From: an uncultured Gammaproteobacteria bacterium
GTDB lineage: Bacteria > Patescibacteriota > Patescibacteriia > Patescibacteriales > UBA12465
Assembly: GCA_964639785.1 (NCBI GenBank)
Contig: CAZXEE010000001.1
Coordinates: forward strand, 179,832-243,831
DNA: 64,000 nt
Reading direction: 5' to 3'
Notes under the pieces: generated by a model
Told to the model about the DNA's origin: nothing
Database searches by the model: none
Seen by the model: only the letters and a program-made list of their open reading frames with translations
Position numbers and translations under genes: made by a program
Shown: piece after piece, positions 38,665 to 44,376 of the stretch
How the letters are laid out: each line of letters starts with the position of its first letter
Numbering within the stretch: the stretch's first letter is position 1

Positions 38665-41205
38665 TTATTCCTTGATTATCTTGAAAGTTTTTAGGCTGTC
38701 GGCAGTCTTTATCGACAGATTATATATTCCCGGTCGAAGATTGGAAATATTAATCGTCGGTTGGTTGCCGGTAATCTTTAAGATAGTTTGCCCTAACAAG
38801 TTGGATAATTCCTCCCGCTCGATGGTCATTCCGTCAGTTTCGATATTTAAGATGTCGGAAGTCGGGTTAGGATAGACGCGGATTAAGCCGTTTCCGCCAT
38901 CGCATATCACTGATATAGGCGGGAAGGTCTTAAATTGTCCGTCATAATCGGTTTGGCGTAAGCGATAGTAATGGGTTGAATCGGAATATTCCTGGTCAAC
39001 GTACGAATAGTATAATTGTCTATTGCTGTTTCCGATTCCGGCAATTTTAGTTATCGGTAAATAGTTTATCCCGTCGGGACTTTTTTCAATCGTGAAAAAG
39101 CTATTATTAGTTTCGGTGAAAGTCGACCAACTTAGCATAGTCTTCCCGCCATGGCATTGACCGTCAAAGAAGGCCAAGGATATCGGCAGTCCGGATTTCA
39201 GTTTCACTTCGATGTCATCTACGAATAAATAGAACATATCGGCATCGGAATAAGCATTGAAGCCTATGAAATAGATGCCGTTAGTTGTCGGAGTAAAAAC
39301 ATATGAAGCATCTTGAGGACTGCTCTGGGTGATATTGGGAAAATCCATCAGGACTGTAGTCATTGATGCTGCTGCCGCCGAAGTTCCATAAGCTACTTTT
39401 AATTTTTCAGGGAAAGTAGTTCCGGTGTTACCGTATTTGAAAGTGACCTTGTATTCCGTCCCTCCTTCTAAGATTAGTCCGGGGGTATAGAACCAGGCAT
39501 TGGCGGCATAGGAAGCGTTCCAACGATATTCTAAGGTTTGACTGGTAAAACCATATCCAGGATTATTAGCGGTAATCCAGCTATTTCCAGACCCAATATT
39601 TTGGATCGAAGTGCAGGCTGGGATGGCTGGAATAATAGCTGTTTCGAAATTTTCGGAATAAGGAATGCTTATTGGACCGCAGATATTTACCAGATAGTCT
39701 TCGGTTTCACCATAACCATAAGTCAAACAAGGGGTTAAGCTGGCTCCGGAAAGGTTTTCAACGACGATAATTCTCATCATGGTCGTTCCTGAGACGGCAT
39801 TCGTCGGGACTGTGAAGGTTCCGGAAATTGTCCGTGGGCTGATCGTCGTGCTGTTTTCAACGTATACTTGTTCTCCAGCATCCAGAAACGAGCCGTTATG
39901 GTTGTAGTCTATCCAGATAGCGCAGCCATTGGGATAATAGGTGGCTCCGTCACACTCATTTTCAGCAATGGAAAAAGAGATGGTGCTTCCAATAGAAATC
40001 GTAGTTAATGGCCCTAGGGTTGTGAAGTTTGAATACTTATAAGCCACTGAACCAGCTCCCGGTGCGACCGTGCCGCAAGTGGAGCTATTAGTGATTCCGT
40101 TAATCGTGACGCTATAGATCTCTTCGTCTGCGGTATAATTAGCAGATGAAGAACAATAGCAATTCAGGAAACTATTGATAACCACTTGGGTAGGGGTAGA
40201 ATAAGAACTTAAGCTGCTATTAGTGCAAGTTACTAGACAGCGATAATAGGTGGCCGATGTCTGTGTGGCAGAATAGCTGGAAGCATTTGCTCCGCTGATG
40301 TTGCCATAAGAGACTCCGTCAGCCGAAGATTGCCATTGGTAAGTTGTACCAGGGCTTAAGGCGTTCTGTAATGACAAGCTAAAAGTATTTCCTGGACAGA
40401 CTGAACTTGACGATGCGATTGTGTTTCCTGGATTCGGCGTGCCAGAACAAGAAGTTATACAGGCGATTGTAAAATCAAATCCGCTGTTTTGGATGGATCC
40501 ATCTGAAACGAATCGGACAGTCAGAGCTCCGGTGGCATCAGTAGAGGTGATGGCTCCAATCGAGGTTGAAGATGATGTTGATCCAGTTAATAATATTGCT
40601 CCGCTAGTTCCGACTCCATTGTAAACATAAACATAGTCATAACCGCTTTCGGTGTAGTATGACCCGGTCAGCTGGACGAAGCTTCCGGCGGTGCTAGGGT
40701 AGATTACCGTATAGCCATCGCTTGTAGCTGCATAACTGCTGTTGGGTCCGCCATTGTCATAGATGTGCTCAGAGCAGGTGGTAACCGAGTTACTTCCTGT
40801 CTTGGGCACCGTTACGACGTGCTTGATAGCCGTTGTCCGGCTAGTAGCTGACGTGCCGCAACTGGAATTAGTATTGCAGTGGACATAATATGTCCCGCTG
40901 ACGGTTGCTTTCCAAGTTAATGGCGTGACTCCGGAGGCGATAACTGTCCCATTATACGTACCTTGTCTGACAGTTAAGAAGTCAGTAGCGATGCTACTGG
41001 TTGAGGTGTAGAAGGCTTCGGCCGCTACTGAATTGATAGTGGCGTATTCGGTGGCATATTGGACAGTGCTAATCGTTACGCTAGCTCCTCCCGTCGGGGC
41101 GGTTACTGTTCCGTAGGCGCTAGTGTTAGTGCACTGTGCCCAGGTTTCAATCGGCGAAAAAGCTATTATCAACAATAATAAGCTTACTTTCTTTAACTTT
41201 TTCAT
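38665..41205 (-). CDS. Large secreted surface protein: CUB-like, GEVED-like, choice-of-anchor-J-like domains + T9SS type-A C-terminal sorting domain
   Basis: 846 aa. Signal peptide ...IETWAQ; YGETEDYLVNI; ENFE...NSW...DDIEV; C-terminus VYPNPTSDILNIE...GIYNLSIKT...FKIIKE. Confidence 0.8.
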   Translation of the reverse strand: MKKLKKVSLLLLIIAFSPIETWAQCTNTSAYGTVTAPTGGASVTISTVQYATEYATINSVAAEAFYTSTSSIATDFLTVRQGTYNGTVIASGVTPLTWKATVSGTYYVHCNTNSSCGTSATSRTTAIKHVVTVPKTGSNSVTTCSEHIYDNGGPNSSYAATSDGYTVIYPSTAGSFVQLTGSYYTESGYDYVYVYNGVGTSGAILLTGSTSSSTSIGAITSTDATGALTVRFVSDGSIQNSGFDFTIACITSCSGTPNPGNTIASSSSVCPGNTFSLSLQNALSPGTTYQWQSSADGVSYGNISGANASSYSATQTSATYYRCLVTCTNSSLSSYSTPTQVVINSFLNCYCSSSANYTADEEIYSVTINGITNSSTCGTVAPGAGSVAYKYSNFTTLGPLTTISIGSTISFSIAENECDGATYYPNGCAIWIDYNHNGSFLDAGEQVYVENSTTISPRTISGTFTVPTNAVSGTTMMRIIVVENLSGASLTPCLTYGYGETEDYLVNICGPISIPYSENFETAIIPAIPACTSIQNIGSGNSWITANNPGYGFTSQTLEYRWNASYAANAWFYTPGLILEGGTEYKVTFKYGNTGTTFPEKLKVAYGTSAAAASMTTVLMDFPNITQSSPQDASYVFTPTTNGIYFIGFNAYSDADMFYLFVDDIEVKLKSGLPISLAFFDGQCHGGKTMLSWSTFTETNNSFFTIEKSPDGINYLPITKIAGIGNSNRQLYYSYVDQEYSDSTHYYRLRQTDYDGQFKTFPPISVICDGGNGLIRVYPNPTSDILNIETDGMTIEREELSNLLGQTILKITGNQPTINISNLRPGIYNLSIKTADSLKTFKIIKE

Positions 41206-41312
41206 TGTATTCTTGGTTTTTGTTGTTTGTTAAAGGACGATAATTACTCGGTATAATATTGTCATTAATTTATATTTTTGTCAATTATCTTAATGAAGTG
41301 GGAATACAAAAA

Positions 41313-41336
41313 ACCCGCTATATAAGCGGGTTTTTC
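41313..41336. terminator. Orphan terminator-like hairpin in divergent intergenic region
   Basis: ACCCGC-TATATAA-GCGGGT flanked by A6 and T5. No convergent gene ends here. Confidence 0.4.
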
Positions 41337-41511
41337 TTGTAGTCCTCCGAGAGGAGATATCTAAACATTTAAGCGAAATTATTGAGGAAATTAAGATCTG
41401 GGCGGTGTTTTTTACACTGATAAATTAATATTACTTTTTATAACTAGAAAAGTCAATTAACTTAAAGTCTAAATTTTTTGTTTTAAAACCCAGTTCAAAT
41501 CTGCCCCACTA

Positions 41512-41538
41512 TTGCCGGGGGGGGGGATATGGTATAAT
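41512..41538 (+). promoter_or_regulatory. Putative promoter of the DGR target gene with G10 tract in the spacer
   Basis: TTGCCG (41512-41517), 15-nt spacer that starts with the G-run, extended -10 TGGTATAAT (41530-41538). ATG follows at 41578. Confidence 0.45.
41517..41526 (+). repeat. Homopolymeric G10 tract
   Basis: Read directly: ...attgcc GGGGGGGGGG atatggtataat... Confidence 0.95.
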
Positions 41539-41577
41539 ACGAGTATTAATAAAAGTTAAGTATTAATCTTGTTTTAT

Positions 41578-42678
41578 ATGAAATCTAAAAAAGCCTTCAC
41601 CCTCATCGAGCTCTTAGTAATAATAGCCATCATTGGTATCTTAGTAACTATTTCCGTTTTAGCTCTCAATAATGCTAGGGCTAAATCCCGTGACGCCAAA
41701 AGAGTGGGGAATATGAAACAAGTCCAAACAGCCCTAGAGCTATTCTTTAACGACAAACAAAGATATCCCACCGCTGAAGAATGGAACACTGGAAAAATAT
41801 ATTCCACTACCACCAATTCCACCTCGACCTATATGCAAATAATACCAGTTGCTCCCACCCCTAATGATGGTAATTGTACCACCGATCAAAACGCTATTAA
41901 CTATATCCCTACCTCAGACGGAGCATCCTATTCTATCTCTTTCTGTCTGGGAGGTACTACCGGAACCCTAGCTCCCGGACCAAAATGTTTGACTCCTAGT
42001 GGAATTGTGGATATGGATTGTAGCGCTGGTAGTCCACCAGCTTTTGCTTGTGGTATTAGCCAAGTTACAATTTCTTCTATTGCCGGCCACACTTGTAATA
42101 CTGGCGCCCCAGACTATGACACTTGTACCTATGACACTGTTGATATTAACGGTCAATGCTGGATGAAGCAAAATATGAATATCGGTACTTATGTCACTGG
42201 TGCCACTACCCAAACCAATGACTCTAATTTACAAAAATATTGTTACGGCGATAATACCGGTAATTGTCTAACTGACGGTGGTCTCTATCAATGGGATGAA
42301 GCTATGCAATATTCCGTCACTGAATTAGCTCAAGGCGTTTGCCCCGATGGTTGGCATATCCCCACTGACGCTGAACAAAATACGCTTGACCAATCATTAA
42401 ATGATACTACTTGTGATGCTAATAGAATCGGGCTTGGTTGTGCTAACGCTGGAACGAAATTACAAGTTGGCGGCACTTCTCATTTCGAGGGACTATTAGC
42501 CGGCCTCCGCAGTACCATTGGGTTGTTCTACTATCAGGGGACGCGCGCGGGCTTCTGGTCGTCATCTATGAGCGGGTCTGATGCTTGGGATCGGTACTTG
42601 CGCACCGGCTATGCGACCGTTTTCCGCCTTCATACTGACCGAGCCTTCGGCTATTCTGTGCGTTGTCTTCAGGACTAA
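41578..42678 (+). CDS. DGR variable protein: prepilin-type signal + FISUMP/C-type-lectin-like domain
   Basis: MKSKKAFTLIELLVIIAIIGILV; CWMKQNMNIG, GGLYQW, GVCPDGWHIPT, GYSVRCLQD. The last 59 codons are the VR. ATG 41578 preferred over TTG 41569. Confidence 0.85.
   Translation: MKSKKAFTLIELLVIIAIIGILVTISVLALNNARAKSRDAKRVGNMKQVQTALELFFNDKQRYPTAEEWNTGKIYSTTTNSTSTYMQIIPVAPTPNDGNCTTDQNAINYIPTSDGASYSISFCLGGTTGTLAPGPKCLTPSGIVDMDCSAGSPPAFACGISQVTISSIAGHTCNTGAPDYDTCTYDTVDINGQCWMKQNMNIGTYVTGATTQTNDSNLQKYCYGDNTGNCLTDGGLYQWDEAMQYSVTELAQGVCPDGWHIPTDAEQNTLDQSLNDTTCDANRIGLGCANAGTKLQVGGTSHFEGLLAGLRSTIGLFYYQGTRAGFWSSSMSGSDAWDRYLRTGYATVFRLHTDRAFGYSVRCLQD
42499..42675 (+). repeat. DGR variable region (VR)
   Basis: Gap-free 177-nt match to 43258-43434. 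26 mismatches, 24 at positions where the TR has A. Confidence 0.85.
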
Positions 42679-42705
42679 TTCGACTATTTCGACTATTTTG
42701 ACTAT
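42679..42705 (+). repeat. 3 x 9-bp tandem repeat just after the VR and stop codon
   Basis: TTCGACTAT TTCGACTAT TTTGACTAT, read directly. Confidence 0.9.
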
Positions 42706-42708
42706 TTT

Positions 42709-42732
42709 TCCGCCTCGTGTCAGCGAGGCGGA
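42709..42732 (+). promoter_or_regulatory. GC-rich hairpin downstream of VR (candidate DGR target-site hairpin or weak terminator)
   Basis: TCCGCCTCG-TGTCAG-CGAGGCGGA: 9-bp stem, 6-nt loop. No strong T-run follows. Confidence 0.5.
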
Positions 42733-42749
42733 ATTAATTAAATTTTCCT

Positions 42750-43094
42750 ATGGCTACTTATGATAACTTGCCGGTGTATAAAGCCAGTTATGATTTATTG
42801 TTAGAGATATTCCTTTTCAGCAAAAATATGGATAAGGAATATAAATATACCATTGGGGAAGATTTGAAAAAAGAAACCACGGCTATGATTACCAATATCT
42901 ATCGTGCCAATTGCAATCAGAACAAAAGGGATTTAATCCAAGGTGGTCGGGAAAATTTAGAAGTCATCAGATTATATTTACGCTTAATCAAAGATTTGAA
43001 ACAGATATCTCTATTAAAATTCGTAAAGATTAATGAAATTATTGAATCAATTTCTAAACAATTGAATTTTTGGCAAAATGCCATGAAATCATAA
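42750..43094 (+). CDS. avd: Four-helix-bundle protein, Avd-type DGR accessory variability determinant
   Basis: 114 aa. LPVYKASYDLLLEIF...KEYKYTIGEDLKKE pattern of the 23S-rRNA-IVS/four-helix-bundle family. Lies between the DGR target and the TR. Confidence 0.7.
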   Translation: MATYDNLPVYKASYDLLLEIFLFSKNMDKEYKYTIGEDLKKETTAMITNIYRANCNQNKRDLIQGGRENLEVIRLYLRLIKDLKQISLLKFVKINEIIESISKQLNFWQNAMKS

Positions 43095-43257
43095 TGGGCC
43101 AGAGTCGTCATCGGTTACGGCCATGACGAGTGCGCCTCACTAGTCCAATAATCCACTAAATTTTCTAAATTTAGTAATTGACGGAGCAACCTGTCATTCT
43201 GCTGATTTTTTAGATAATATCAAATCAGCCGAAGAGTTTAGCGATTATTATAAAAGA

Positions 43258-43434
43258 GCCGGCAACCGCAATACCAATGGGTCGTTCAACAATCAGAGGA
43301 CGAACGCGAACTTCTGGTCGTCATCTATGAGCGGGTCTAATGCTTGGAATCGGAACTTGAACACCGGCTATGCGACCGTTAACCGCAATCATAATGACCA
43401 AGCCAACGGCTTTTCTGTGCGTTGTCTTCAGGAC
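43258..43434 (+). repeat. DGR template region (TR)
   Basis: Asn-codon-rich (15 AAY codons) copy of the VR. Non-coding in context; the track ORF 43370.. reads through it spuriously. Confidence 0.85.
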
Positions 43435-43489
43435 TTGTCAAAAGAAGCCATATAACAATAGCTTCTTTTATTTTACTAAAATATTTTTT

Positions 43490-43801
43490 ATGTCCGATAA
43501 ACTTCTTGTTGACCTCTTTCAAGCCTATTACGACGCTCGGCGTTACAAGAGAAATACGATGAGCGCTTTAAATTTTGAAATTAATTTAGAGCATAATCTA
43601 TTTGAGTTATATCAAGAGATAAAAAATGGTACTTATCAAATTAGTCCCAGTCTGGCCTTTATAATTTTCGATCCGGTTCAGCGGGAAATTATCGCCTCTC
43701 CCTTTCGGGATCGAGTCGTTCATCATCTCGTTTTTAATTATATTAATCCTGTTTTAGAAAAACTTTTTATTTCCGACAGTTATAGCTGTCGCCAAAGATA
43801 G
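43490..43801 (+). pseudogene. DGR reverse transcriptase, N-terminal fragment only (~103 aa)
   Basis: MSDKLLVDLFQAYYDARRYKR...PFRDRVVHHLVFNYINP...SDSYSCRQR*. Stops where DGR RTs continue with GKG and the catalytic domains. No RT motifs downstream in any frame. Confidence 0.75.
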
Positions 43802-44342
43802 GCTGGAAAATCAGTTCAGCAATTATATCAAAGAAATATCGCCTGATCCTGATTTTGCTAAAGCCTATCAAAAAATTGTGGTTGAGGAATGGGAAAAGGG
43901 ACTGCAAAATTATAAGGGTAGTATTGTTAATCTCAAGAATGAATTAGATAAACTAGAAATAGAGAAGTCTAAATTAATTGAAATGAAGAAAAAGGATTTG
44001 CTTGACGATGAGGACTTTAAAGAAGAAATGTATAAAGTAAAGATTAAAATAGCCGAAAAGCAGTCTATCCCAGCCGAGAGTATAGCTGATAATTTTGATG
44101 TTAAAAAAGAATCCAAAAAAGTTTTTGATATTATCCCCGACCTCAATAAATTCTATAATGGTCTCGGCTATTACGACAAGCTGAAATTACAGGGTTTGAT
44201 TTTTCCTGAAAAGGTCTATTTTGATTTTTCCGAAAGTCGAACCCCTAAATTGTCGCTAATATTACAAATCAAAAGAGAGCTGGCAACTGCCAGCTCCCCG
44301 AAAGTAGCCTCTAGGGGAATCGAACCCCTGTTACATGGTTGA
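43797..44342 (+). pseudogene. C-terminal remnant of a large serine recombinase-like protein
   Basis: The frame opens at the RT break. K/E-rich coiled coil plus LQGLIFPEKVYFDFSESRTPKLSLILQI tail. No catalytic N-domain. The 3' end reads into tRNA-Glu. Confidence 0.45.
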
Positions 44343-44376
44343 GAACCATGTGTCCTAACCGTTAGACGAAGAGGCC
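44305..44376 (-). tRNA. tRNA-Glu (anticodon CUC)
   Basis: Minus strand GGCCTCT...CATGG-TTCTCAA-CCATG...AGGGG-TTCGATT-CCCCT-AGAGGCT-A. 72 nt, hand-folded. Confidence 0.85.

What the first reader, a model, noticed from the sequence alone, without database searches (positions are those of the whole stretch)
41512..41538. G10 homopolymer in the promoter spacer of the DGR target gene: candidate phase-variation switch
A run of ten G (41517-41526) is the longest G/C homopolymer I noticed in this AT-rich window. It sits between a possible -35 (TTGCCG, 41512-41517) and an extended -10 (TGGTATAAT, 41530-41538), 40 nt upstream of the ATG of the pilin-like DGR target. The spacer is currently 15 nt. Gain or loss of one or two G by slipped-strand mispairing would move it toward or away from the 17-nt optimum. 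Homopolymer tracts in this position control ON/OFF or graded expression of fimbrial and outer-membrane genes in Bordetella and Neisseria. Combining expression switching with DGR sequence diversification on the same adhesin would be notable.
Basis: partly seen in the sequence, partly recalled or inferred. Interest (0 to 1): 0.6.

Follow-up and report, generated by a model that had tools for sequence, protein, structure and literature searches.

The report
Variable poly-G tract in adhesin promoter
A run of ten G's sits inside the likely promoter of a pilus-tip adhesin gene in an ultrasmall (Patescibacteria) bacterium. The same run is 9 to 12 G's long in nearly identical strains elsewhere, so it is probably a slippage-driven expression dial like those of pathogens such as Neisseria, although no expression data exist yet.

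Summary
G10 at 41517-41526 is the only G/C run longer than 6 in 64 kb (0.08 expected). It lies between TTGCCG and an extended -10 (TGGTATAAT), 40 nt before the ATG of a pilin/FISUMP protein whose C-terminus is a genuine DGR variable region.

Comparative data support a hypermutable tract. Three strains more than 99% identical across the 5' region carry G10, G11 and G12, and this is the only indel there. In a second lineage, assemblies identical over 4,003 nt differ only by G10 versus G9. Six further lineages keep a tract at this position (G7, G10, G10, G11), or a T-interrupted version. About two dozen paralogues lack it. Other promoters in the window use TTGnnn-17-TATAAT. By that rule G12 is optimal and this window's G10 (15-nt spacer) is suboptimal.

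Caveats:
- There are no reads, no mapped TSS and no expression data.
- Three lineages sit at a 19-nt spacer.
- An extended -10 lessens dependence on the -35.
- This strain's DGR reverse transcriptase is truncated.

Verdict: this is a probable promoter simple-sequence-repeat (SSR) switch or rheostat, closest to porA and Treponema poly-G promoters. It is a new member of a known kind, in a phylum where I found none described.

The parts
41517..41526 (+). G10 homopolymer, the candidate hypermutable SSR
   Evidence: Orthologous tracts are G11 (L002), G12 (L006, L086), G9/G10 (L088-L090), G10 (L092-94, L101-102), G11 (L005), G7 (L091) and interrupted G5TG3TG (L003/4).
41512..41517 (+). -35-like hexamer TTGCCG. 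It is 15 nt from the -10 here, 16 nt in the G11 allele and 17 nt in the G12 allele.
   Evidence: Sequence. The TTG is invariant in the alignments A2/A3. Other promoters in the window have TTGnnn at 17 nt. Its function is inferred.
41504..41516 (+). Conserved motif CCCCACTATTGCC (family consensus CCACTATTGYC) directly 5' of the tract
   Evidence: It could be the -35 region or a regulator site. This is inferred.
41530..41538 (+). Extended -10 element TGGTATAAT
   Evidence: TGNTATAAT occurs 11 times in the window against 3.0 expected, and none of 100 shuffles reached 11. TGnTATAAT is at a conserved distance, about 35-50 nt before the ATG, in most paralogous pilin-FISUMP genes.
41578..42678 (+). 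Target gene: type IV pilin-like N-terminus (N_methyl) plus a FISUMP/Fib_succ_major domain, 366 aa
   Evidence: Pfam PF07963 (1e-06) and PF09603 (2.9e-26). 1,286 homologues, mostly Falkowbacteria/Patescibacteria.
42498..42676 (+). DGR variable region (VR) at the C-terminus of the target
   Evidence: 179-nt repeat with the TR. 24 of 26 TR-to-VR mismatches are at TR adenines.
42709..42732 (+). GC-rich hairpin just 3' of the VR, preceded by 9-nt GACTATTT repeats (42673-42707)
   Evidence: Sequence and repeats D2/D4. The stem is kept by compensatory changes across lineages. It resembles the target-side hairpin of DGRs (own knowledge).
42750..43094 (+). DGR accessory gene avd
   Evidence: Pfam bAvd PF22296, 7e-11.
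43257..43435 (+). DGR template repeat (TR)
43490..43801 (+). Truncated DGR reverse transcriptase (first ~101 residues only)
   Evidence: tblastn of the intact RT of L005 matches only 43490-43792. L006 has a 389-aa RT. Homology to L006 stops at 43794. The junction is confirmed by the independent Logan contig L001.
41338..41470 (.). Conserved non-coding block upstream of the promoter. It includes an invariant 25-mer (41419-41443) and a minus-strand promoter-like site, TTGACT-17-TAATAT (41456-41428).
   Evidence: Its role is unknown. It may be a divergent promoter or leader.

Best explanation
The G tract is a real, selectively maintained, hypermutable simple-sequence repeat. It is embedded in the core sigma-70-type promoter of a pilin-like FISUMP adhesin gene that is (or was) diversified by a DGR.

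Proposed mechanism:
- Slipped-strand mispairing during replication adds or removes G's.
- This changes the distance, and the helical phasing, between the conserved CCACTATTGCC/TTGCCG element and the extended -10 TGGTATAAT.
- That sets the transcription level of the adhesin, and possibly of the downstream avd.
- By the 17-nt rule seen at other promoters of this genome, G12 is optimal, G11 intermediate, and this window's G10 (15-nt spacer) is a low-expression state.
- Because the -10 is of the extended type, the effect is more likely graded (a rheostat) than strictly ON/OFF.

Shown: the existence, position, conservation and length polymorphism of the tract.
Inferred: that TTGCCG and TATAAT are the functional promoter, that the length differences arise by slippage in vivo, and that length changes expression.
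For: 1. The tract is an outlier. It is the only G/C run longer than 6 in 64 kb, with 0.08 expected, in a genome that otherwise avoids G/C runs. In 364 kb of related Patescibacteria loci, every G/C run of 8 or more except one lies at this promoter position.
2. Length is polymorphic on a near-identical background. The window, L002 and L006 differ by at most 7 substitutions over about 1,070 nt (41340-42400), and the only indel there is the tract: G10, G11, G12. L088 against L089 shows a single difference in 4,003 aligned nt, one G in the tract. L088 against L090 shows the same over 2,169 nt. L089 (JGI) and L090 (Logan) come from different pipelines and agree on G9.
3. The tract is retained across lineages whose proteins are only 63-77% identical: G11, G10, G10 and G7. 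One lineage has it 'locked' by T interruptions (G5TG3TG). About two dozen more distant paralogues have G5 or less.
4. Promoter context. The extended -10 is enriched in the window (11 against 3 expected). It is positionally conserved before the paralogues' start codons. Three other intergenic promoters in the window have TTGnnn at exactly 17 nt.
5. Three assemblies break at, or 15 nt before, the tract. This is compatible with heterogeneity or with low coverage.
6. There are direct precedents for poly-G between -35 and -10. In N. meningitidis porA, 11G gives high expression, 10G 2-fold less and 9G 13-fold less (PMC3639595). In T. pallidum tp0126 and tprL the optimum is a 17-nt spacer (PMC7864442).
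Against: - There are no raw reads, so within-population heterogeneity and reversibility are untested.
- Homopolymers are also the most error-prone sites for sequencing and consensus calling.
- The TSS is not mapped.
- An extended -10 can work without a -35, so spacer length may matter little.
- In lineages D, F and G the TTG-to--10 distance is 19 nt. It is identical in 3 (F) and 2 (G) independent assemblies. That requires these populations to be OFF, or the -35 assignment to be wrong.
- In paralogues with short G runs (L014, L025) the TTG lies only 9-12 nt from the -10, so the TTG cannot be a -35 there.
- G-richness is kept even when the tract is interrupted (lineage C). This hints at a sequence-specific role independent of length.
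Confidence: 0.6

Rival explanations
1. The tract is a static regulatory or structural promoter element. The G-rich stretch would be a fixed binding site or a rigid DNA element, for example for a regulator that recognises CCACTATTGCC-G(n). The length differences would be neutral slippage noise with no programmed effect on expression.
For: - G-richness at this site is kept when the run is interrupted (G5TG3TG in L003/L004/L087) and as G4-G5 in distant paralogues.
- Lineages F and G are invariant at G10 across 3 and 2 assemblies.
- The TTG-to--10 distance ranges from 15 to 19 nt between lineages, which is hard to reconcile with a strict spacing requirement.
- The extended -10 makes a -35 dispensable (established sigma-70 biology).
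Against: - A G9-12 tract is intrinsically unstable. Its retention at high length in at least 6 lineages, in genomes that otherwise purge G/C runs, argues for selection on the long tract itself.
- Any indel here necessarily shifts the conserved upstream motif relative to the -10.
- In every experimentally studied case of poly-G/C in this position, length changes expression.
Confidence: 0.22
2. The tract is real, but the length differences between assemblies are sequencing or consensus errors at a difficult homopolymer. On this view there is no biological polymorphism.
For: - Illumina and long-read platforms both miscall long G runs.
- L086 has only 3.4x coverage.
- Contigs L095-L097 break at or just before the tract, which shows it is a problem site for assembly.
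- L006 and L086 may be the same population (identical over 5,333 nt).
Against: - The window and L006 differ by two G's, not one.
- Two different pipelines and samples agree on G9 (L089, L090), while a third sample processed by the same JGI pipeline gives G10.
- Lineages F and G give identical G10 calls in 3 and 2 assemblies, so calling is reproducible at this length.
- No other homopolymer differs in the same alignments.
Confidence: 0.12
3. The tract belongs to a transcribed or structured element. Candidates are a CCCC...GGGG hairpin, a 5'-UTR element made from an upstream promoter, a tRNA-derived att remnant, or a DGR cis element. On this view it is not a promoter spacer.
For: - A C-rich run lies 9 nt upstream of the tract in lineages A, B, C and F.
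- A strongly conserved ~130-nt block lies further upstream.
- The sequence GTTCAAATC before the tract looks like a tRNA T-loop.
Against: - The hairpin is no better than shuffled sequence (z = -0.26) and shows almost no covariation.
- Rfam finds nothing at the tract, only terminator-like hits at 41309-41335. ARAGORN finds no tRNA there.
- No plus-strand promoter is detectable in the conserved block. The only good match is on the minus strand.
- Homology between lineages continues on both sides of the tract, so it is not an element boundary.
- The DGR cis elements (VR, hairpin) are at the other end of the gene.
Confidence: 0.06

Closest known systems
Neisseria meningitidis porA promoter poly-G tract
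   Same: A homopolymeric G tract of 9-11 lies between the -35 and -10 hexamers of a surface-protein gene. One-nucleotide slippage gives graded expression: 11G high, 10G 2-fold lower, 9G 13-fold lower (PMC3639595). The tract length range here (G9-G12) and its position are essentially the same.
   Different: - Here the -10 is of the extended type.
- The organism is a Patescibacteria (Falkowbacteria-like) MAG.
- The gene is a pilin-FISUMP adhesin that is also a DGR target.
- No expression or rate data exist.
Treponema pallidum poly-G promoters (tp0126, tprE/G/J, tprL)
   Same: Poly-G tracts of 7-11 lie within the promoters of outer-membrane protein genes in a small-genome, hard-to-culture bacterium. 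For tp0126 the tract lies between -35 and -10 and the optimum is a 17-nt spacer. Length varies within isolates (PMC7864442).
   Different: In tprL the TSS is 4 nt downstream of the tract, which is a different geometry. The Treponema cases were verified by fragment-length analysis, 5' RACE and GFP reporters. Here there is only comparative genomics.
Bordetella pertussis fim2/fim3 promoter C-stretch and Haemophilus influenzae hifA/hifB TA repeats (own knowledge; hif is cited in the reference list of PMC11868660)
   Same: A repeat tract between an upstream recognition element (the BvgA site or -35) and the -10 controls fimbrial or pilus gene expression through spacing. The regulated product is a pilus or fimbrial adhesin, as here.
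   Different: - The Bordetella tract is poly-C of about 13-15 and needs the activator BvgA.
- The hif tract is a dinucleotide repeat shared by two overlapping divergent promoters.
- Here the nearest divergent promoter-like site is about 60 nt away and does not overlap the tract.
DGR target cassettes of CPR/Patescibacteria (pilin- or FISUMP/CLec-type targets)
   Same: The cassette has target-avd-TR-RT order. The VR at the C-terminus of a FISUMP domain shows adenine-specific differences from the TR. A hairpin lies 3' of the VR.
   Different: I found no description of a homopolymeric tract in a DGR target promoter in the searched literature. In this window the RT is truncated.

Membership tests
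SSR-mediated transcriptional phase variation (contingency locus, porA type) | Long homopolymeric tract (about 8 or more) that is exceptional for the genome | tested here: met
   G10 is the only G/C run longer than 6 in 64 kb, with 0.08 expected. All but one of the G/C runs of 8 or more in 364 kb of related loci are at this site.
SSR-mediated transcriptional phase variation (contingency locus, porA type) | Tract lies within the core promoter, between the -35 and -10, of the regulated gene | tested here: inconclusive
   By sequence it lies between TTGCCG and a conserved, enriched extended -10. However, the TSS is unmapped, and the TTG-to--10 distance is 19 nt in lineages D, F and G.
SSR-mediated transcriptional phase variation (contingency locus, porA type) | Tract length is polymorphic between closely related strains while the flanks are conserved | tested here: met
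   G10/G11/G12 on a 5' region more than 99% identical. G10 versus G9 is the sole difference in 4,003 nt.
SSR-mediated transcriptional phase variation (contingency locus, porA type) | High-frequency, reversible length change within a clonal population | not testable with these tools
   No read data or cultures are available. Contig breaks at the tract are only suggestive.
SSR-mediated transcriptional phase variation (contingency locus, porA type) | Expression level depends on tract length | not testable with these tools
   This needs reporter fusions or metatranscriptomes linked to alleles.
SSR-mediated transcriptional phase variation (contingency locus, porA type) | Regulated gene encodes a surface-exposed or interaction determinant | tested here: met
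   The protein has a prepilin N-terminal methylation motif plus a FISUMP ligand-binding domain carrying a DGR VR.
Diversity-generating retroelement (DGR) cassette | TR/VR pair with adenine-specific substitutions | tested here: met
   179-nt repeat. 24 of 26 mismatches are at TR adenines.
Diversity-generating retroelement (DGR) cassette | Intact DGR-type reverse transcriptase | tested here: not met
   Only residues 1-101 are present (43490-43792) and no other RT is in the window. Orthologous cassettes in L005, L006 and L099 have full-length RTs. The window therefore carries a decayed DGR, unless an RT acts in trans from elsewhere in the genome.
Diversity-generating retroelement (DGR) cassette | Accessory protein Avd | tested here: met
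   bAvd PF22296, 7e-11.

The most novel reading that the evidence does not exclude
The poly-G promoter may drive the whole DGR operon (target, avd, TR RNA, RT) in relatives with intact cassettes. Slippage would then switch both adhesin display and mutagenic retrohoming ON and OFF. That would be a stochastic switch controlling a targeted hypermutation system, giving two-tier bet-hedging (whether to express, and what to express) in obligate episymbionts.

Support is indirect:
- All 7 Avd-adjacent targets examined carry the tract.
- There is no consensus promoter or terminator between the target stop codon and avd.

Against:
- A weak promoter candidate lies before the TR.
- One tract-bearing gene has no Avd nearby.
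- The seven cassettes are probably one clade.
Probability: 0.2. Interest if true: 0.8.

Novelty: new member of a known kind. Interest (0 to 1): 0.55.

Why it matters
Patescibacteria/CPR bacteria are thought to live attached to host cells through type IV pili. How they regulate host-binding proteins is almost unknown, because few are cultured.

A conserved, length-variable poly-G tract in the promoter of a DGR-diversified pilus adhesin would be the first indication I could find of a classical 'contingency locus' in this phylum. Such loci are known mainly from host-adapted pathogens. It would show that expression switching and DGR sequence diversification can be layered on one adhesin.

It also gives a cheap, directly testable marker. 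G-tract length distributions can be read from existing metagenomic reads and correlated with metatranscriptomes.

Practically, it warns that assemblies break at, or miscount, this site.

Tried and rejected
- Hairpin between the upstream C-run and the G tract. DNA fold z = -0.26, and there was essentially no covariation in 7 lineages. Rejected.
- Known RNA family or tRNA remnant at or near the tract. Rfam in e-value mode gives only sub-threshold hits, all upstream of the tract and most over the 41309-41335 terminator; ARAGORN finds nothing there. Rejected.
- Coding frameshift tract. No ORF of 20 aa or more spans it. Rejected.
- Element or insertion boundary. Homology with other lineages continues on both sides of the tract. 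The cassette homology to L006 runs from 41326 to 43794. Rejected.
- Exact-protein look-ups of the window's target and of the upstream 846-aa gene found nothing. The Avd look-up gave only a 1.9-kb contig that does not reach the tract.
- Viral-contig scans for the tract promoter, the invariant 25-mer and the CCACTATTGYC-G7 motif found nothing. There is no sign of a phage origin.
- The small ORF reading through 41338-41430 (...EEIKIWAVFFTLIN*) shows some synonymous-looking changes between lineages, but it has no start codon in the window. Not pursued as a gene.
- Pfam on the genes divergent from the promoter in other lineages gave nothing informative, except a LexA-like repressor in lineage B.
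- The Bacteroides DGR preprint contains no mention of phase-variable or invertible promoters.

Full report
**Observation**

The window reads ...CCCCACTATTGCC-GGGGGGGGGG-ATATGG-TATAAT....
- G10 is at 41517-41526.
- TTGCCG is at 41512-41517.
- TGGTATAAT is at 41530-41538.
- The ATG of the downstream gene is at 41578.

The tract is far from chance. The 64-kb window (44% G+C) contains only three G runs of 6 or more and no C run of 6 or more. A first-order Markov model expects about 16 and about 5. It expects 0.08 runs of G10 or longer. No ORF of 20 aa or more covers the tract on either strand.

**Context**

The downstream gene (41578-42678) encodes a prepilin-type N-terminal methylation motif followed by a Fib_succ_major (FISUMP) domain. 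It has more than 1,200 homologues, mostly annotated from Candidatus Falkowbacteria/Patescibacteria MAGs.

Its last 179 nt (42498-42676) are a DGR variable region. They repeat at 43257-43435, the template repeat, and 24 of 26 differences fall on TR adenines. An avd gene lies between them.

The reverse transcriptase is truncated after about 101 residues (43490-43801). The sequence then switches to unrelated DNA ending in a tRNA-Glu gene. An independent Logan contig from SRR8925744 is identical across this junction, so it is not a chimera of this assembly. No other RT is in the window. In this strain the DGR is therefore decayed, unless an RT acts in trans. Orthologous cassettes elsewhere have full-length RTs.

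**Is the tract in a promoter?**

- TGNTATAAT is over-represented in the window: 11 sites against 3.0 expected, and none of 100 shuffles reached 11.
- Three other intergenic copies that precede genes have TTGACA, TTGGCG or TTGATT exactly 17 nt upstream. The organism therefore appears to use canonical sigma-70 geometry.
- Across divergent paralogous pilin-FISUMP genes, a TGnTATAAT-like element recurs about 35-50 nt before the start codon. This phylogenetic footprint supports 41530-41538 as the -10.
- The TSS is unmapped.

**Comparative test**

I retrieved orthologous loci through protein homologues, a genome-collection scan and a gapped DNA-pattern scan of metagenomes.

| Lineage | Source | Tract |
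|---|---|---|
| A (this window's type; flanks ...CCCCA[C/A]TATTGCC-Gn-ATATGGTATAAT) | window | G10 |
| A | L002 (ERR14064713) | G11 |
| A | L006 (MAG RA.bin4) and L086 (activated-sludge contig) | G12 |
| B (identical 364-aa protein) | L088 | G10 |
| B | L089, L090 | G9 |
| C | L003/L004/L087 | G5TG3TG, a T-interrupted and presumably stabilised version |
| D | L005 | G11 |
| E | L091 | G7 |
| F | L092-L094 | G10 |
| G | L101/L102 | G10 |

- In lineage A, the strains differ by at most 7 substitutions over 41340-42400, and the only indel there is the tract.
- In lineage B, L088 against L089 shows one difference in 4,003 aligned nt, the extra G. L088 against L090 shows the same over 2,169 nt. L089 and L090 come from different pipelines and are identical.
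- All tracts in lineages C to G are at the same position, after a CCACTATTGYC-like motif.
- Three assemblies of lineage F end at, or 15 nt before, the tract.
- About two dozen more distant paralogues have runs of G5 or less in the 120 nt upstream.
- In 364 kb of Patescibacteria-like loci, every G/C run of 8 or more but one is this promoter tract.

The tract is therefore real and conserved over substantial divergence. It is also the most variable site of the locus between near-identical strains. This is the classic comparative signature of a contingency SSR.

**Mechanism**

Taking TTGYCG as the -35, the spacer to TATAAT is as follows.

| Lineage | Spacer (nt) |
|---|---|
| A | 15, 16, 17 (for G10, G11, G12) |
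| B | 16, 17 (for G9, G10) |
| C | 16 |
| E | 17 |
| D, F, G | 19 |

Under the 17-nt rule the window's allele is a low-expression state and G12 is optimal.

This matches well-studied precedents:
- In porA of N. meningitidis, 11G between -35 and -10 gives high expression, 10G 2-fold lower and 9G 13-fold lower (PMC3639595).
- In T. pallidum, tp0126 has its optimum where poly-G brings the spacer to 17 nt. tprL varies from 7 to 11 G within isolates, and 8G is more active than 10G in reporters (PMC7864442).

Points that weaken a simple ON/OFF model:
- The -10 is extended, so a -35 contact may be partly dispensable (established sigma-70 biology).
- Lineages D, F and G sit at 19 nt, and F and G do so reproducibly.
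- In paralogues with short G runs the TTG is only 9-12 nt from the -10.
- G-richness persists even when the run is interrupted.

I therefore favour a graded, rheostat-like effect of tract length on promoter strength (confidence 0.6). The main rival is a static G-rich promoter or regulator element with neutral length noise (0.22). Pure sequencing error for the length differences gets 0.12.

**Rejected alternatives**

- A hairpin between the upstream C-run and the tract is no better than shuffles (z = -0.26) and lacks covariation.
- No Rfam family or tRNA is present at the tract.
- The tract is not at a homology boundary.
- The DGR cis elements lie at the 3' end of the gene.

**Relation to the DGR**

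All seven pilin-FISUMP genes that are immediately followed by avd carry the tract: the window, L002, L003, L005, L006, L088 and L099. These are probably one clade. Two genes without a nearby avd also carry one: L091 with G7 and L101/L102 with G10.

No consensus promoter or intrinsic terminator separates the target from avd. The tract-bearing promoter may therefore also feed the DGR genes. A weak candidate promoter does precede the TR. This is the most novel reading not excluded by the evidence (probability about 0.2).

**Novelty**

Full-text searches found no paper that links SSR phase variation with CPR/Patescibacteria or with DGR target promoters. The large Bacteroides DGR study does not mention phase-variable promoters.

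Mechanistically this is a new member of a well-known kind, promoter-spacer homopolymer switches. It occurs in a new phylum and in a new combination with a DGR target. The interest is moderate, because expression and read-level evidence are missing but could be obtained from existing public data.

Noticed in passing
window 43490-44376: The DGR reverse-transcriptase gene stops after about 101 residues (stop codon at 43799-43801). Homology to the intact cassette of L006 ends at 43794. It is followed by an unrelated 154-aa ORF (43878-44342, no Pfam hit, coiled-coil-like) that overlaps a tRNA-Glu(CTC) gene on the minus strand (44304-44376). This looks like a deletion or rearrangement that killed the DGR in this strain.
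   Followed up: partly
window 41338-41470 (core 41419-41443): A ~130-nt non-coding block is about 90% conserved between lineages whose target proteins are only 66-77% identical. It includes an invariant 25-mer, GATAAATTAATATTACTTTTTATAA. It contains a minus-strand promoter-like site (TTGACT-17-TAATAT, 41456-41428), a small conserved hairpin (CTCCTCTCGGAGGA on the minus strand) and then a bidirectional terminator (41308-41335). It could be a divergent ~110-nt RNA or a leader. In L092 the same block precedes a divergent 63-aa gene. The minus-strand fold has z = -3.1, but most of that comes from the terminator, and covariation is minimal.
   Followed up: partly
window 42673-42732: Directly after the target's stop codon there are three or four tandem 9-nt repeats (GACTAATTC / GACTATTTC / GACTATTTT / GACTATTTT). 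They are followed by a GC-rich hairpin (42709-42732) whose stem is kept by compensatory changes in other lineages. This arrangement is present after the Avd-adjacent targets but not after the non-adjacent paralogues (L092a, L091). It is probably the DGR target-side recognition structure.
   Followed up: partly
L095 end (3872), L096 end (3856), L097 end (2546): Three independent assemblies of lineage F terminate exactly at the first G of the tract or about 15 nt before it. The tract is a recurrent assembly breakpoint, caused by heterogeneity or by a coverage drop.
   Followed up: no
L092 2501-3598 and 3934-5079: Lineage F has two tandem pilin-FISUMP genes that share the conserved upstream block. 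Only the second, which is adjacent to avd and the RT, has the G10 tract. The first has CGCTATTACTGAGTGG at the equivalent place.
   Followed up: partly
window 41539-41577: The predicted 5' leader has no Shine-Dalgarno-like sequence. It contains a repeated GTATTAAT motif (41543-41550 and 41560-41567). A similar GTATTAA motif follows the -10 in several paralogues (L008, L014, L016, L092a).
   Followed up: no
window 38665-41205 (minus strand): The divergent upstream neighbour is an 846-aa protein with GEVED and Por_Secre_tail (T9SS-type C-terminal sorting) domains, which is unusual for a Patescibacteria-like genome. The flanks of the DGR cassette differ between the window, L002/L006 and L003, so the cassette (41326-43794) sits in different genomic contexts.
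   Followed up: no
L088 1697-2302 (minus strand): In lineage B the gene divergent from the G-tract promoter is a LexA-like repressor (LexA_DNA_bind plus Peptidase_S24). This raises the possibility of SOS-type control of that cassette.
   Followed up: no
L040 5244-5252: The only other G/C run of 8 or more in the 364 kb of related loci is a G9 in a Saccharibacteria MAG contig, in an unrelated context.
   Followed up: no
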